A stretch of DNA of 64,000 nt. It comes from an uncultured Bacilli bacterium. Its GTDB lineage: Bacteria > Bacillota_I > Bacilli_A > RF39 > UBA660. The stretch covers positions 68,134 through 132,133 of the forward strand of contig CALVOP010000002.1 in assembly GCA_944350345.1 (NCBI GenBank), in the 5' to 3' direction. A model generated the notes under the pieces. The model searched no databases, was not told where the DNA came from, and saw only the letters and a list, made by a program, of their open reading frames with translations. The translations under genes were made by a program, and so were the position numbers. Shown here one piece after another: positions 51,959 to 58,112 of this stretch (positions within the stretch are counted from its first letter, which is position 1; every line of letters starts with the position of its first letter).

Positions 51959-52087
51959 ATGAACTGTAATAAAAATAAAATAAATGCGTACACACAAAAC
52001 ATTCCGATTTGTTTAGTACCGGGACCAACTGGTGCAACTGAACGATTGTTTATATCTTCAAATAGAATAATCATAGATTCAAGTTAA
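51959..52087 (+). CDS. 5' segment of an interrupted collagen-like protein gene (N-terminal domain plus first GXY triplets), truncated by element insertion
   Basis: The ORF MNCNKNKINAYTQNIPICLVPGPTGAT|ERL... is preceded by an AAAGAGAG RBS. GXY periodicity breaks exactly at a gcaactg core that recurs at 57360-57366. Confidence 0.5.
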   Translation: MNCNKNKINAYTQNIPICLVPGPTGATERLFISSNRIIIDSS

Positions 52088-52145
52088 ATAATTCCTTATA
52101 AAGTAAAAAAAATAACCTTTTCATTTGAATTGGTTATTTTATTTT

Positions 52146-55263: not shown

Positions 55264-57333
55264 ATGAGTAAATTACAAAGTATAAAAAATAGTGATATTA
55301 AAACATTAATAAGGGTGGTGTTATATTTAAGATTATCAGATGAAGATCGTGATAAATTAACAAAAGAACAAATATCAAAGAGTATCAAAAATCAAGAATT
55401 GATGTTAAGGGAATATGCAGAAAACGAAGGCTGGCAAATTGTAGGTGTTTATAATGATGAAGATTGGTCTGGTGCTGATAGCTCACGTCCAAACTTTAAC
55501 AAAATGATTGCTGAGTGTGAAGCTGGAAATGTTGATATAGTTTTATGTAAAACACAAGCAAGGTTCGCAAGAGATTCTGAACTTATAGAAAAATACATAC
55601 ATAACTTATTTCACGAATGGAATGTTAGATTTCTTACAACAGTTGATAGAATTGACAATACTAAAAGAGAAACTAAAAAAACAAGTCAAATATTAGGATT
55701 AACAGATGAATGGTATTTAGAAGATACTTCACTTAATATTCGTGAAACATTTAAGTCAAAACGAAAAGCTGGCGAGTGCACGGCAAGTTTTTCAAAATAT
55801 GGATACATTAAAGATCCAGAAAATAATAATCACTTAATACCTGATCCGGTAGCTGCAGAAGTTGTAAAAAGAATTTTTGATGATTATTACAAAGGCGACG
55901 GTTTAGAAAAGATTGCTAATAACTTAAACAAAGAAAAAATACCTAGTCCGTTTGAGTATAAGAAAATGCACGGTAGCAAATTACAAATACCTTTACTAAA
56001 AGAATATTTAGATTATGACTATATAGAAAAAACAGGAAATTATATTATTAGTATCAATCTTACAAATAATGAAACACAGATATTAAATAATCTTATTAGT
56101 TTTAACTACTTAACTACTGATAAAAAAGTATTTAATAATAAGTGTGAAATTACTTTAAAAAGATATACTCAAAATAAAACTAAAATCTATTATAGTGAAA
56201 AAGATAATTTAGATATTAACAAGTTTAATGAAAGTGATTTTGTATTATTAAATGAAGATGATGATATACCTAAAACTGCTACTTGTATTGCTACTAAAAC
56301 AGATATACTTGATAGAACACATACAATCGGTTATCAATTTGAAATCACATTAAAAGAAAATGTAAGCAAAGAAAAGTTTTATGTTATGATTAAAAAAGCT
56401 GTTGATAATATTGATGTTGATTTAGATTTTAAAATTAATATAAGAAGAAAATTAAAATGGTCTAGTCAAACAATTAAAAGTATATTAAAAGACGAAGTTT
56501 ATATCGGTAATATGGTACAGTTTAAAACAACAACAGTAAGTTATAAAAATCACACATTAGTTTATAATGATGAAGAAGATAGAATAAGAAAAAATGATAC
56601 TCATACAGGACTTGTTGATAAAACTATATTTTATACAATACAACAAAGATTAGAAGATAAATCACGAAGTTGTGAAAATGGCGAAGTGCATGCTTTTAAT
56701 AATAAAGTATTTTGTATGAATTGTAATAGAGTTTTTTGTAAGTGTGGTAAAAAACAAGATTCTGGATTTGGTTATTTATGTTGTAAAGATAAGAATGATA
56801 AATGGTCTAATTGTGATAATAAAAAATATCTTCGTGAAGAAGAATTACATAACTTGGTATTAGAAAAGATTAATGTTTTACTTAACAGGTTTTATGATGA
56901 AGAAAGTCTTAACAATGAGAAAGATGAGACAATAGAACAAGATTTATTTAAAGATAAATTAAAAACATTAGAAAAAGAATTAAATAATATTAATAAGGAA
57001 TTACAAAATAAAAGTTCATATTTCCAAAGACTATATGAAGATCGTACTTCTGGGATACTACCAGAAAAAGAATTTTTAATTCTAATGAATAAGTATAAAG
57101 ATGATACTGCTAAATTAGAAGAAAGAATGAAGATAATAAAAAAAGACATAGCTACTACTACAACTATGAAAGAAAGTTTAAAATCAAAAAAGAATATTTT
57201 TAAGAAGTACAGACATATAGATAAATTAAATGTTGAAATTGTTGGCGACTTTATTGATAAAGTTTTAATCGGTCATTATGACGAAGAAACAAATTCAAGA
57301 GATATAAAGGTTATATGGAACTTTCAAATTTAA
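55264..57333 (+). CDS. large serine recombinase
   Basis: N-terminal resolvase/invertase catalytic domain (VVLYLRLSDEDRD with a Ser nucleophile, and an ARFARD Arg cluster), a recombinase domain, a Cys-rich zinc ribbon (CMNCNRVFCKCG...CCKDK...NC) and a C-terminal coiled coil, 689 aa. Confidence 0.85.
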   Translation: MSKLQSIKNSDIKTLIRVVLYLRLSDEDRDKLTKEQISKSIKNQELMLREYAENEGWQIVGVYNDEDWSGADSSRPNFNKMIAECEAGNVDIVLCKTQARFARDSELIEKYIHNLFHEWNVRFLTTVDRIDNTKRETKKTSQILGLTDEWYLEDTSLNIRETFKSKRKAGECTASFSKYGYIKDPENNNHLIPDPVAAEVVKRIFDDYYKGDGLEKIANNLNKEKIPSPFEYKKMHGSKLQIPLLKEYLDYDYIEKTGNYIISINLTNNETQILNNLISFNYLTTDKKVFNNKCEITLKRYTQNKTKIYYSEKDNLDINKFNESDFVLLNEDDDIPKTATCIATKTDILDRTHTIGYQFEITLKENVSKEKFYVMIKKAVDNIDVDLDFKINIRRKLKWSSQTIKSILKDEVYIGNMVQFKTTTVSYKNHTLVYNDEEDRIRKNDTHTGLVDKTIFYTIQQRLEDKSRSCENGEVHAFNNKVFCMNCNRVFCKCGKKQDSGFGYLCCKDKNDKWSNCDNKKYLREEELHNLVLEKINVLLNRFYDEESLNNEKDETIEQDLFKDKLKTLEKELNNINKELQNKSSYFQRLYEDRTSGILPEKEFLILMNKYKDDTAKLEERMKIIKKDIATTTTMKESLKSKKNIFKKYRHIDKLNVEIVGDFIDKVLIGHYDEETNSRDIKVIWNFQI

Positions 57334-58112
57334 TATATAAAGAAGATTTAAACAATGGAGCAACTGGACCTATAGGCCCAACAGGAGCAACAGGACCAAC
57401 CGGAAGTGTTGGACCAAATCCATACAATTTATATGTGCAATCAAGTGCATTACCTAATGGTGATGGGAGTGAAGAAAAGCCATTTCAAACTATAGAAGAA
57501 GCGTTAAACGTAGTTGAACCAAATGGAGTGATAAATGTTTTAAGTGGAACATATCCAGTTACTAGTCAGTATGTTTTAAGTAATAATGTTACAATAAAAG
57601 GAAGAGCAGGGTCGATTATTGAACTTGAAGCACCAACAATTCCATTTTTACTAACTGGAAATAACACACTTGACGGACTTACTATAACCAGTAACGTGGC
57701 ATATCCAGTAGAATTTATACAAGTATCCGGGGCGAACAACCAAATAATAAATTGTCAAATTTATGGACCTAATCAACCAGGAGATTCGTCAACTTGGGTA
57801 GTAAATCGCGGCTTTGTAACGCAAAGTAATGCTACAAATTTGTTAGTTAGAGACAACGTTTTCTACTCATTAAGGCATTCCGGTTATTTAAATCCTGGAT
57901 CAACCGAAATTATAATGAACAACGTAACTTTTTATACACGAGGCTACGTAGTAGATCAGGCAATCTTTGAATTTTCTGGTAATTCTTGGGGAATACCTGA
58001 AAATGCGGTAGATATAGCACTACTAGCAGGAACAACTACAGGAGTTCCATATGACCCAATTTCAGAATTAGAAGCAAATAACAGTAATGCAACTATAAGT
58101 GACCAGCGATAA
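57315..58112 (+). CDS. collagen-like repeat protein with C-terminal right-handed beta-helix domain (3' segment of the split gene; locally an ORF from ATG 57315)
   Basis: GATGPIGPTGATGPTGSVGPN GXY triplets, then a GSEEKPFQTIEEA...SGTYPV pectin-lyase-fold-like region. The first 19 nt overlap the recombinase gene. Confidence 0.65.
   Translation: MELSNLIYKEDLNNGATGPIGPTGATGPTGSVGPNPYNLYVQSSALPNGDGSEEKPFQTIEEALNVVEPNGVINVLSGTYPVTSQYVLSNNVTIKGRAGSIIELEAPTIPFLLTGNNTLDGLTITSNVAYPVEFIQVSGANNQIINCQIYGPNQPGDSSTWVVNRGFVTQSNATNLLVRDNVFYSLRHSGYLNPGSTEIIMNNVTFYTRGYVVDQAIFEFSGNSWGIPENAVDIALLAGTTTGVPYDPISELEANNSNATISDQR

What the first reader, a model, noticed from the sequence alone, without database searches (positions are those of the whole stretch)
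51959..58112. Collagen-like surface/exosporium-type gene split by a 5.3-kb element carrying a large serine recombinase; precise excision would rebuild the ORF
The short ORF at 51959 encodes MNCNKNKINAYTQNIPICLVPGPTGAT and then loses GXY periodicity right after the sequence gcaactg (52034-52040). The same 7-mer occurs at 57360-57366, within codons G-A-T-G of the collagen-like ORF, 27 nt beyond the end of a 689-aa large serine recombinase gene. Both occurrences sit in the same codon phase. Joining left flank + core + right flank gives ...LVPGPTGATGPIGPTGATGPTGSVGPNPYNL... This is eight uninterrupted GXY triplets across the junction, followed by the beta-helix domain. The architecture matches skin-like intervening elements that interrupt sporulation genes and are excised by SpoIVCA-type serine recombinases. 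The neighbouring spoVID-like/ysxE-like (CotS family) genes suggest the host sporulates. A split collagen-like (BclA-like) coat/exosporium gene would be a new target class for such elements.
Basis: partly seen in the sequence, partly recalled or inferred. Interest (0 to 1): 0.88.

Follow-up and report, generated by a model that had tools for sequence, protein, structure and literature searches.

The report
Mobile element splitting a collagen-like gene
A 5.3-kb mobile DNA element carrying its own serine recombinase has landed inside the collagen-like repeat of a probable spore-surface gene. It belongs to a so far undescribed recombinase family that habitually inserts into collagen-repeat DNA, but nothing shows that it is a programmed sporulation switch like the skin element.

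Summary
A collagen-like/beta-helix gene is split at 52037-38 and 57363-64 by a 5,326-bp element that ends in a 689-aa large serine recombinase (LSR) gene.

- **Restoration:** the joined ORF (275 aa) matches uninterrupted orthologues over its full length. A strain 97.7% identical in the flanks carries the empty site in the same Lon / LysM protein / YsxE-like gene neighbourhood.
- **Crossover:** it is the dinucleotide AC, not the 7-mer. AC is the exact dyad centre of the reconstructed attP (17 of 25 arm matches).

- **Recombinase type:** the LSR is TnpX/TndX-like. It has a DUF4368 tail and its best PDB match is TnpX.
- **Target habit:** relatives at 56-97% identity abut GXY-coding DNA at 10 of 12 distinct junctions, in several different collagen-like genes. 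Some relatives carry a MobL relaxase and a T4SS coupling protein.
- **Mosaic cargo:** the window copy carries an unrelated two-gene cassette.
- **Missing gene:** it lacks the 56-60-aa ORF found upstream of the LSR in every other relative with readable upstream DNA.
- **No developmental evidence:** I found no sign of sporulation-timed excision, and the host gene's spore role is inferred.

Verdict: a real, strain-variable insertion, and a new variant of a known kind.

The parts
50211..51703 (+). Context: a LysM-domain protein (50211-50855, SpoVID-like only through its LysM domain) and a YsxE/CotS-like protein (50852-51703), directly upstream of the split gene.
   Evidence: Pfam LysM E=7e-6. NCBIfam TIGR02904 spore_ysxE E=1e-28, but 100 bits against a cut-off of 263. 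The same gene order flanks the uninterrupted gene in L001, L003 and L004.
51959..52038 (+). 5' fragment of the collagen-like gene, up to and including the crossover AC. As it stands the ORF runs on into the element and stops at 52087 (42 aa).
   Evidence: The N-terminus is identical to that of uninterrupted P0002.
52012..52063 (+). attL: host half-site ...ggaccaactggtgca, the crossover AC (52037-52038), then the element half-site tgaacgATTGTTTATATCTTC. The inverted-repeat arm lies at 52045-52059.
   Evidence: The same architecture is seen in L018 (ggcgcaAC|tgcacgattggttaattcttc) and in L027 (cctAC|tgaacgattgtttaaatcttc).
52039..57364 (.). The inserted element, 5,326 bp, counted from the base after the left AC through the right AC. 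It is a mosaic: left att arm, two-gene cargo cassette, unique spacer, LSR module with the right att arm.
   Evidence: It is absent from the otherwise 96-98% identical L001. The mosaic structure comes from blastn against all fetched loci.
52146..54362 (-). Cargo gene 1: a 738-aa protein with a weak HopA1-family match (residues 164-284) and tandem ~100-aa C-terminal repeats (KLPNGAEISARQYIQE...). Function unknown.
   Evidence: Pfam PF17914 E=4.8e-5. There are 666 homologues, none named. With its upstream partner it also occurs outside this LSR family, in L046-L048. The AF2 model was poor, with mean pLDDT 58.
54380..54898 (-). Cargo gene 2: a 172-aa protein (the ORF is open to a TTG at 54955). 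It is always paired with the 738-aa gene and has no domain hits.
   Evidence: Co-occurrence in L046-L050.
54953..55212 (.). Unique spacer at the position where all other family members encode a conserved 56-60-aa ORF (..EELKxIFNKKYFxYIKRxEKRxLGG). That ORF is absent here.
   Evidence: Homology to relatives begins only at 55213-55225. Alignment A1. tblastn with the small ORF finds nothing in the window but does find it in L015-L026, L028 and L052-L056.
55264..57333 (+). Large serine recombinase, 689 aa. Ser25 lies in LYLRLS. Domains: Resolvase, Recombinase (split by a family-specific insertion of about 160 aa at residues ~238-398), Zn ribbon (borderline score) and DUF4368.
   Evidence: The catalytic motif aligns with TnpX LYERLS. 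Insertion. Family of ~690-aa homologues at 53-98% identity.
57338..57389 (+). attR: element half-site taaaGAAGATTTAAACAATggagca (inverted-repeat arm 57342-57356), the crossover AC (57363-57364), then the host half-site tggacctataggcccaacagg.
   Evidence: reconstructed attP arms match 17 of 25 around AC, and only 0.025% of random window sites reach that value. Junctions of relatives diverge immediately after ...gcaAC.
57365..58112 (+). 3' fragment of the collagen-like gene: the remaining GXY triplets and a Pel9A-like/DUF1565 right-handed beta-helix domain. The annotated ORF start at 57315 (MELSNLIYKEDLNN...) is fortuitous and is read from the element's end.
   Evidence: The in-frame read-in from the element is not conserved in relatives, because L019, L022 and L052 have stops there.

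Best explanation
This is a genuine, fairly recent, strain-variable insertion of a small mosaic integrative element. The target is the collagen-like (GXY) region of a 275-aa protein with a Cys-containing N-terminus, a collagen stretch and a beta-helix, encoded just downstream of a LysM protein / YsxE-like gene pair.

The element belongs to a previously uncharacterised family of ~690-aa TnpX/TndX-like large serine recombinases with a DUF4368 tail. The family's attP pairs with a short DNA motif, roughly (G/C)CA-AC-NGG, with crossover at AC. That motif is the coding sequence for Ala/Pro-Thr-Gly, so collagen-like genes offer many landing sites.

- **Shown:** the split, the empty site in a sister strain, the att-site anatomy with AC at the dyad centre, the family-wide habit of sitting in GXY-coding DNA, the mobile-element character of relatives, and the mosaic cargo of this copy.
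- **Inferred:** as inserted, the gene is inactive (a 42-aa stub plus a promoterless 3' part). LSR-catalysed attL x attR recombination would excise a 5.3-kb circle and restore the gene exactly. TnpX and TndX perform excision without a directionality factor, so excision here is plausible. However, this copy has lost the small ORF that accompanies the LSR in all other members, so its excision competence and timing are unknown.

I judge an ordinary mobile-element insertion, possibly reversible, more likely than a domesticated sporulation-programmed rearrangement.
For: - **Split and restoration:**
- **Independent assemblies of the interrupted allele:**
- **Crossover AC:** the attP dyad is centred on AC (17/25). 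Relatives' attR sequences diverge right after gcaAC. The second attL in L027 shares only AC with the core.
- **Target habit:** 10 of 12 distinct right junctions lie in GXY-coding DNA (the window, L015, L017, L018, L022, L025, L026, L027/L029, L052, L053; LSR identity 56-97%), yet such DNA makes up only about 0.1% of this window. The eleventh junction (L030) is in an ABC ATPase gene at E-P-T-G codons (ccaAC|agga), so the preference is for a DNA motif and not a gene.
- **Multi-targeting:** one identical LSR protein (P0123) sits at two different sites, and L027 holds tandem insertions.
- **Mobile character:** relatives carry a MobL relaxase, a T4SS coupling protein and a methylase.
- **TnpX-like affiliation:** DUF4368 scores above the gathering threshold and the best PDB hit is TnpX at E=3e-16. 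Literature: DUF4368 marks the multi-targeting LSR clade that includes TndX (PMC10083194); the Tn4451 LSR integrates and excises without an RDF, at 2-bp cores and with low specificity (PMC5704250).
- **Mosaic structure and missing small ORF:**
Against: - Both halves of the split gene are still intact and in frame. In another species a related 4.6-kb element splits a collagen-like gene in all 24 contigs read, again with an intact reconstructable 281-aa ORF. Both patterns would also be expected of a maintained, excision-competent intervening element.
- The host gene's neighbours and the family's preference for collagen-like genes, often next to GT2-TPR glycosyltransferases, fit late mother-cell genes. 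Those are the classic niche of sporulation intervening elements.
- The window element carries no relaxase or recognisable oriT, so its own mobility is not demonstrated.
- The 'non-collagen' junction in L024/L028 is atypical, being 2 nt shorter before AC, and may be a secondary deletion rather than a second target.
Confidence: 0.6

Rival explanations
1. Skin-like developmental rearrangement. The element is kept in the germline chromosome and is excised by its LSR only in the terminally differentiated mother cell. This rebuilds a late spore-surface gene, as with skin/sigK, SPbeta/spsM or gin/gerE.
For: - In silico excision restores the gene exactly.
- The LSR is intact and both gene halves are undecayed.
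- The gene lies next to a YsxE-like gene and a LysM-protein gene.
- A related element is apparently fixed in a collagen-like gene of another species, with an intact reconstructable ORF.
- Non-phage elements can be sporulation intervening elements (gin; PMC5595907).
- C. difficile bclA genes are sigma-K/sigma-E targets (PMC5025042 Table 1; abstract of 10.1101/2021.06.21.449304).
Against: - No mother-cell promoter or directionality factor could be identified. The promoter scans are uninformative in this ~25% GC DNA.
- The family-conserved small ORF, the obvious candidate partner or RDF, is missing from this copy.
- The insertion is polymorphic among close strains.
- The LSR family is multi-targeting and partly linked to mobilisation genes.
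- Neither reconstructed protein is in the 15-billion-protein collection as an exact sequence, so no isogenic excised allele has been captured.
- The spore function of the target is unproven.
Confidence: 0.22
2. Stochastic reversible ON/OFF switch. The LSR, like TnpX/TndX, both excises and re-integrates without a directionality factor. A subpopulation therefore carries a restored gene, and spore-surface or cell-surface collagen-like proteins vary in a phase-variation-like way.
For: - TnpX/TndX-type LSRs catalyse both directions alone (PMC5704250; titles cited in PMC3783163).
- The family repeatedly targets surface collagen-like genes, sometimes more than once in one gene.
- Interrupted and uninterrupted alleles both circulate.
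Against: - The empty-site alleles found differ from the window allele by 2-4% in the flanks and in repeat number. They are different strains, not revertants.
- No exact revertant protein is on record.
- No attP circle was found in IMG/VR.
- Bidirectionality of this LSR has not been tested.
Confidence: 0.1
3. Assembly or binning artefact. The element and the two gene halves were joined wrongly through repetitive GXY sequence.
For: Collagen-like repeats are hard to assemble. The collagen region in L005 looks frameshifted.
Against: The complete structure, with both junctions and flanks, is reproduced at 100% identity in an independent assembly (L049, ERR4096368). It is reproduced in parts from a third sample (L002 and L050, ERR14036139). 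The junctions also have canonical LSR att anatomy.
Confidence: 0.02

Closest known systems
Tn4451/Tn4453 (TnpX) and Tn5397 (TndX): large-serine-recombinase transposons and integrative mobilisable elements of Clostridia
   Same: - The LSR sits at one end of the element.
- It has a DUF4368-type C-terminal tail.
- The catalytic domain is closest to TnpX among solved structures.
- The crossover is a 2-bp core inside imperfect inverted repeats.
- There are several target sites rather than one.
- Relatives carry a relaxase and a coupling protein.
   Different: - Sequence identity to anything in the plasmid and phage collections is at most 36%.
- The LSR has a family-specific insertion of about 160 aa in the recombinase domain.
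- The core is AC rather than the GA I recall for TnpX/TndX (from memory, not checked here).
- The target motif coincides with collagen GXY codons.
- The window copy has no mobilisation genes or resistance gene.
- A conserved 56-60-aa ORF accompanies the LSR in the family, although it is lost here.
Sporulation gene-intervening elements: skin (sigK; SpoIVCA, and CD1231 with the RDF CD1234), SPbeta (spsM; SprA/SprB), vfbin, and gin (gerE; GirC/GirX)
   Same: - An LSR-bearing element interrupts a coding sequence in a Firmicute.
- It is flanked by a short shared core within inverted repeats.
- Precise excision would rebuild the ORF.
- gin shows that non-phage elements qualify (PMC5595907).
   Different: - Those elements sit at one specific site in a proven mother-cell gene, and their excision is experimentally tied to sporulation through a sigma-E/K-controlled LSR or RDF.
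- Here the target's spore role is inferred and the family hits many collagen-like genes.
- The insertion is polymorphic.
- No RDF or sporulation promoter is identifiable.
- The LSR is of the TnpX type rather than the SpoIVCA/SprA type.
'Multi-targeting' LSR clade of Durrant et al. 2022 (PMC10083194)
   Same: - DUF4368 is present.
- LSRs at 95% identity or more occupy different target genes.
- The target motif is more complex than a simple AT-rich dinucleotide.
   Different: That work does not, in the text I searched, describe a clade specialised on collagen-repeat coding DNA. The target logic found here, a repeat-encoded motif that offers many sites within one class of genes, appears unreported.
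BclA-type exosporium collagen-like glycoproteins (the target gene)
   Same: - It has an N-terminal domain followed by GXY repeats whose number varies between strains (275-296 aa and beyond).
- Homologues have Cys-rich N-termini.
- It lies next to coat-morphogenesis-like genes.
   Different: - The C-terminal domain is a right-handed beta-helix (Pel9A-like/DUF1565), not the C1q/TNF-like BclA domain.
- There is no NCBIfam hit and no experimental link to spores.

Membership tests
Large serine recombinase (LSR) integrative element | N-terminal resolvase catalytic domain with the nucleophilic serine | tested here: met
   Pfam Resolvase E=1.8e-21. LYLRLS (Ser25) aligns with TnpX LYERLS.
Large serine recombinase (LSR) integrative element | Recombinase domain followed by a zinc-ribbon domain | tested here: met
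   PF07508 E=1.8e-20. PF13408 scores 23.3 bits, just under its 25.3 cut-off. The recombinase domain is interrupted by an insertion of about 160 aa.
Large serine recombinase (LSR) integrative element | att sites of about 50 bp with imperfect dyad symmetry around a central crossover dinucleotide shared by attL and attR | tested here: met
   Reconstructed attP arms match 17/25 around AC, and 0.025% of random sites reach this. AC is the only base pair shared by all junctions.
Large serine recombinase (LSR) integrative element | An empty attB exists and equals left flank + core + right flank | tested here: met
   L001 reads ctactggagcaACtggacctatagg in the same synteny.
TnpX/TndX-like multi-targeting LSR clade | C-terminal DUF4368 domain | tested here: met
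   PF14287, 27.8 bits against a cut-off of 25. Its significance is described in PMC10083194.
TnpX/TndX-like multi-targeting LSR clade | Closely related LSRs (90% identity or more) occupy several different target genes | tested here: met
   The window, L025, L026 and L027/L029 (95-97% identity) lie in different collagen-like genes. The identical protein P0123 sits at two sites.
TnpX/TndX-like multi-targeting LSR clade | Excision and integration by the LSR alone, without an RDF | not testable with these tools
   Known for TnpX/TndX (PMC5704250). Here a conserved small ORF accompanies the LSR in relatives, and its role is unknown.
Integrative mobilisable or conjugative element (IME/ICE) | Relaxase and/or oriT, with or without a coupling protein, on the element | tested here: not met
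   The window element encodes only the LSR and the 172-aa + 738-aa cassette. Relatives L015 and L022 do carry MobL, a T4CP and a methylase. An oriT could not be searched for.
Sporulation gene-intervening element (skin / SPbeta / gin type) | Interrupts a gene expressed specifically in the mother cell during sporulation | tested here: inconclusive
   The only evidence is neighbourhood (a sub-threshold YsxE match and a LysM protein) and analogy with BclA. There is no expression data, and the organism is an uncultured Bacilli MAG.
Sporulation gene-intervening element (skin / SPbeta / gin type) | Precise excision reconstitutes an intact, functional ORF | tested here: met
   Shown in silico only: an 828-nt open ORF, with full-length homologues at 86-90% identity.
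Sporulation gene-intervening element (skin / SPbeta / gin type) | Excision restricted to sporulation through a sigma-E/K (SpoIIID)-controlled recombinase or RDF | not testable with these tools
   The sigma-70 consensus scans are uninformative. There is no RDF candidate in the element, and the family's small ORF is absent.
Sporulation gene-intervening element (skin / SPbeta / gin type) | Recombinase related to SpoIVCA/SprA/GirC | not tested
   No direct comparison with those sequences was possible. Indirectly, the best NCBIfam hits are CcrB and XisF at sub-threshold scores, the best PDB hit is TnpX, and phage-collection hits are at most 31% identical.
BclA-like exosporium collagen-like protein (target gene) | Central GXY collagen-like region of variable length | tested here: met
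   Eight GXY triplets in the joined ORF, 15 in P0001, and up to more than 40 in homologues.
BclA-like exosporium collagen-like protein (target gene) | C-terminal C1q/TNF-like trimerisation domain and an N-terminal exosporium-targeting motif | tested here: not met
   The C-terminus is a beta-helix (PF22842, PF13229, PF07602). No solved homologue was found. The N-terminal motif was not examined.

The most novel reading that the evidence does not exclude
A whole family of ~690-aa serine recombinases has specialised on the DNA that encodes collagen-like Gly-X-Y repeats. Its members, from 4.6-kb minimal elements to mobilisable islands, act as excisable interrupters of spore-surface collagen-like genes in gut Bacilli. 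Excision, perhaps governed by the conserved 56-60-aa partner protein, would restore the genes in the mother cell or in a subpopulation. That would add a new target class and a new recombinase lineage to programmed gene rearrangement. It would also supply natural integrases with a defined, repeat-encoded landing motif.
Probability: 0.2. Interest if true: 0.75.

Novelty: new variant of a known kind. Interest (0 to 1): 0.5.

Why it matters
LSR elements that split genes, and sporulation genes rebuilt by excision, are both established. The new point is the target logic. A distinct TnpX-like LSR lineage recognises a motif embedded in collagen-repeat codons, so an entire class of surface or spore genes becomes a multi-copy landing pad.

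If excision proves to be regulated, this would extend programmed rearrangement from regulators and enzymes (sigK, gerE, spsM, spoVFB) to structural spore-surface proteins of uncultured gut Bacilli.

Independently of that, the family offers natural integrases with a defined target of about 20 bp or more and a non-palindromic AC core. It also offers a candidate small accessory protein, which is of interest for genome engineering.

For annotation, it explains the 'truncated' collagen-like ORFs that begin MELSNLIYKEDLNN... in metagenomes.

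Tried and rejected
- **Sigma-70 promoter and terminator scans** around both junctions and upstream of the LSR gave counts no better than shuffles, so nothing was concluded. 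A CATAnnnTA-like sequence before the 5' fragment lies too close to the start codon to argue for a sigma-K promoter; this came from inspection only.
- **attP circle junction and the element's right end in IMG/VR:** no hits, and no close LSR relative there. The element is not phage-like. PHROGs gives only the generic 'integrase' family and PADLOC gives nothing.
- **Exact look-up of the reconstructed 275-aa and 281-aa proteins and of the 5' stub** found nothing on record. There is therefore no captured isogenic revertant; this is weak negative evidence.
- **Does the element supply a start codon to express the 3' half?** The MELSNLIYKEDLNN read-in is closed by stops in L019, L022 and L052, so it is fortuitous.
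- **Structure of the 738-aa cargo protein:** AF2 on 14 sequences gave mean pLDDT 58 and pTM 0.35, so I ran no fold search. The PDB sequence search returned only spurious antibody hits.
- **Genome-collection scan for the organism:** it returned only one close relative, the MAG 'uncultured Bacilli bacterium BRZ_DA_bin2' (PheS 99% identical). No taxon name was obtained.
- **The L024/L028 junction** (LSR 98-99% identical, non-collagen flank) was first taken as a second target. The sequence before AC is 2 nt shorter than in every other copy and the left end could not be found, so I treat it as ambiguous: an off-target event or a secondary deletion.
- **dN/dS between interrupted and empty alleles** was considered, but I made only a rough hand estimate from the aligned proteins. 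The differences look like shared polymorphisms among alleles, so they say nothing about relaxed selection.

Full report
**1. The observation**

Reading the window confirms each statement of the finding.
- The ATG at 51959 opens MNCNKNKINAYTQNIPICLVPGPTGAT. After gcaactg (52034-52040) the frame runs into unrelated sequence (ERLFISSNRIIIDSS) and stops at 52087.
- The same 7-mer lies at 57360-57366, in the same codon phase. That is 27 nt after the stop of a 689-aa ORF (55264-57333). The ORF has Resolvase, Recombinase, Zn-ribbon and DUF4368 domains.
- Joining the halves gives an open 828-nt ORF with eight uninterrupted GXY triplets across the junction, followed by a beta-helix domain.

**2. Is it real?**

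A search with the joined protein found 779 relatives.
- P0001 is 90% identical over 100% of the query and reads ...LVPGPTGATGPIGPTGATGPTGS... across the predicted junction.
- P0002 has exactly the same 27 N-terminal residues.
- P0001 is encoded on L001, which has the same gene order: Lon, a LysM protein, a YsxE-like protein, then the uninterrupted gene.
- L001 aligns to window 47651-52043 at 97.7% and to 57356-58326 at 96%. The two alignments overlap on tggagcaactggac, so L001 is an empty site.
- L003 and L004 show the uninterrupted gene between the YsxE-like gene and pheS.
- The interrupted allele is reproduced in independent assemblies. L049 (ERR4096368) is 100% identical over 5,400 nt and includes both junctions. 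L002 and L050 come from ERR14036139.

An assembly artefact is therefore excluded, and the insertion is polymorphic among close strains.

**3. Anatomy of the recombination sites**

I took AC (52037-38 and 57363-64) as the crossover.
- The reconstructed attP is taaaGAAGATTTAAACAATggagca-AC-tgaacgATTGTTTATATCTTCaaat.
- Its two 25-nt arms match as an inverted repeat at 17 of 25 positions, with AC exactly at the centre. Only 0.025% of random positions in the window reach that value.
- Two independent observations point to the same dinucleotide. In relatives the right-end sequences are conserved up to ...gcaAC and diverge at the next base (t, a or c). In L027 a second element's left junction reads cctAC|tgaacgattgttt, sharing only AC with the window's core.

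**4. What the recombinase is**

- The LSR has the catalytic LYLRLS motif (Ser25), which aligns with TnpX LYERLS.
- Its best solved relatives are TnpX of Tn4451 (E=3e-16) and a putative conjugative-transposon recombinase. Both rank ahead of phage integrases.
- DUF4368 scores above Pfam's gathering threshold.
- Durrant et al. report that DUF4368 marks a clade of 'multi-targeting' LSRs that includes the TndX-like transposases (PMC10083194).
- The phage and plasmid collections hold nothing more than 36% identical, and IMG/VR holds nothing close.
- The protein belongs to a large, unnamed family of ~690-aa proteins at 53-98% identity from Bacilli MAGs.
- The family is distinguished from generic DUF4368 LSRs by an insertion of about 160 aa at residues ~238-398.

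**5. What the family does**

I fetched the DNA around relatives and read the junction after each LSR gene.

| Locus | LSR identity to window | Sequence after the core | Flanking DNA |
|---|---|---|---|
| Window | 100% | AC\|tggacctatagg | collagen-like / beta-helix gene |
| L015 | 86% | AC\|tggggctactgg | a different collagen-like gene |
| L017 | 86% (same protein as in L015) | AC\|aggccctactag | a third collagen-like gene |
| L018-21 | 68% | AC\|aggtgctaccgg | collagen-like gene |
| L022 | 76% | AC\|cggacctacagg | collagen-like gene |
| L025 | 95% | (not listed) | collagen-like gene |
| L026 | 95% | (not listed) | collagen-like gene |
| L027/L029 | 96-97% | (not listed) | collagen-like gene |
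| L052 | 56% | cctAC\|tggacctactgg | collagen-like gene |
| L053-56 | 69% | (not listed) | collagen-like gene |

- That makes 10 of 12 distinct junctions in GXY-coding DNA. Such DNA occupies 63 nt of this 64-kb window.
- The eleventh junction (L030) lies in an ABC ATPase gene at the codons E-P-T-G (ccaAC|aggagct). The preference is therefore for a DNA motif, roughly (G/C)CA-AC-NGG, and not for a gene.
- The twelfth junction (L024/L028) is atypical and ambiguous.
- L027 shows two elements inserted 96 nt apart in one collagen gene.
- In L018-L021 I located both ends. A 4,637-bp element splits a collagen-like gene whose reconstruction is an intact 281-aa protein with Cys-rich N- and C-termini, encoded next to a GT2-TPR glycosyltransferase. 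All 24 contigs read for that LSR carry this insertion.

**6. Mobile character and cargo**

- Relatives at 76-86% identity sit at the end of islands that carry a MobL relaxase, a T4SS coupling protein, a DNA methylase and HTH regulators.
- The L018 element carries a sigma-70-like gene and a membrane-protein gene.
- The window element is a mosaic:
  - 52037-52115 is a left att arm, 90% identical to the L027 copy;
  - 52098-54952 is a two-gene cassette (172 aa and 738 aa, minus strand). This cassette occurs at 74-88% identity in other genomic contexts outside this LSR family;
  - 54953-55212 is unique;
  - 55213-57365 is the LSR module shared by the whole family.
- The 738-aa protein has only a weak HopA1-family match and internal C-terminal repeats. 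Its AF2 model was too poor to use.

**7. A missing partner**

A conserved 56-60-aa ORF (..EELKxIFNKKYFxYIKRxEKRxLGG) lies directly upstream of the LSR in every other member whose upstream DNA I could read. That holds down to 56% LSR identity (L015-L026, L028, L052-L056). The window, L049 and L050 lack it. It has no Pfam match.

Known LSR directionality factors can be this small. CD1234 of skinCd is 72 aa (PMC5025042). So this ORF is a candidate partner or RDF, but that is inference only.

The loss means this copy's excision competence cannot be assumed. Against that, TnpX and TndX are reported to integrate and excise without any RDF (PMC5704250; titles cited in PMC3783163).

**8. Is the target a sporulation gene?**

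The evidence is indirect.
- The upstream neighbour matches the YsxE equivalog model at E=1e-28, but at 100 bits against a cut-off of 263.
- The gene before that has only a LysM domain.
- Other ORFs I scanned in the window are housekeeping or unknown.
- The organism is an uncultured Bacilli MAG with about 25% GC.
- The target family (Cys-containing N-terminus, variable GXY region, Pel9A-like beta-helix) has no named or solved member.
- Collagen-like BclA genes are mother-cell sigma-E/K targets in C. difficile (abstract listed). That is analogy, not evidence for this gene.

**9. Mechanism and ranking of explanations**

*Shown:*
- An LSR element integrated at AC inside Ala-Thr-Gly codons, leaving a 42-aa stub and a promoterless 3' part.
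- attL x attR recombination at AC would remove 5,326 bp and restore the gene exactly.

*Inferred:*
- The LSR can catalyse this excision, either alone like TnpX or with a factor supplied in trans.

Three observations weigh on the choice. The family is multi-targeting and partly mobilisable. The insertion is polymorphic. No sporulation control element is visible. I therefore rank the explanations as follows:
- ordinary, possibly reversible mobile-element insertion: 0.6;
- domesticated, mother-cell-specific rearrangement: 0.22;
- stochastic on/off switching: 0.1.

The intact state of both gene halves, and the apparently fixed insertion in the L018-L021 species, keep the developmental reading alive.

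**10. Novelty**

- Full-text searches combining collagen-like, exosporium, serine recombinase or integrase, intervening element, attB and integration site found no report of LSR elements targeting collagen-like genes.
- Known sporulation intervening elements target sigK, spsM, gerE and similar genes (PMC5595907; PMC7192596).

The instance in this window is a new variant of a known kind. The family-level target preference is the more interesting result.

Noticed in passing
window 58356-61747 versus L003 2577-6045: L003 shares 92-93% nucleotide identity with the window on both sides (the YsxE-like gene and the LemA gene). Its pheS-pheT operon does not align at the DNA level, and its PheS is only 33% identical in protein. 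L005 carries the window's type at 95% nucleotide identity. This looks like a xenologous replacement of the essential pheST operon between close strains.
   Followed up: partly
L027 1925-2035: Two family elements sit in tandem in one collagen-like gene. The attR of one copy is followed by 96 nt of GXY-coding DNA and then the attL of a second copy, whose left arm is 90% identical to window 52037-52115.
   Followed up: partly
L018 11145-13213: In one assembly the 3' part of the already split collagen-like gene is interrupted again by a second, unrelated 542-aa LSR. That LSR sits at the end of a prophage-like block with RecA-like and DnaB-like genes. Collagen-like genes may therefore be hot spots for more than one LSR lineage.
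   Followed up: no
L024 826-996; L015 8764-8946; L022 8761-8937; L018 about 8797-8928: A conserved 56-60-aa ORF lies immediately upstream of the LSR in all family members except the window element. It is followed by a conserved GCGCGTTATAAT promoter-like box. It is a candidate recombination directionality factor or regulator and has no Pfam match.
   Followed up: partly
window 52146-54898 (minus strand): This is a two-gene cassette of 172 aa and 738 aa. The larger protein has a weak HopA1-family match and two to three ~100-aa C-terminal repeats. The cassette is widespread in gut metagenomes (666 homologues) and always paired. Elsewhere it lies beside decayed recombinase fragments and a KilA-N gene. 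Its function is unknown and it has no PADLOC hit.
   Followed up: partly
window 55975-56460 (LSR residues ~238-398): There is a family-specific insertion of about 160 aa inside the Recombinase (DNA-binding) domain. It is absent from generic DUF4368 LSRs that are 33-36% identical. It could relate to the unusual target recognition.
   Followed up: partly
window 22681-24715 and 45462-46042; L005 1-833: Three stretches of the window are about 71% identical to the start of L005. That region encodes a 211-aa protein ending ...GDGTASNPYTV. This is a repeated paralogous gene family in the genome, and in L005 a member of it replaces the YsxE-like gene as the upstream neighbour of the collagen-like gene.
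   Followed up: no
L019, L022, L053 downstream of the split collagen-like genes: Several target collagen-like genes have Cys-rich termini and a TLxIGTVTTG...PNFxLNLxIP domain. They are followed by a GT2-TPR glycosyltransferase, an arrangement that recalls glycosylated exosporium collagen-like proteins.
   Followed up: no
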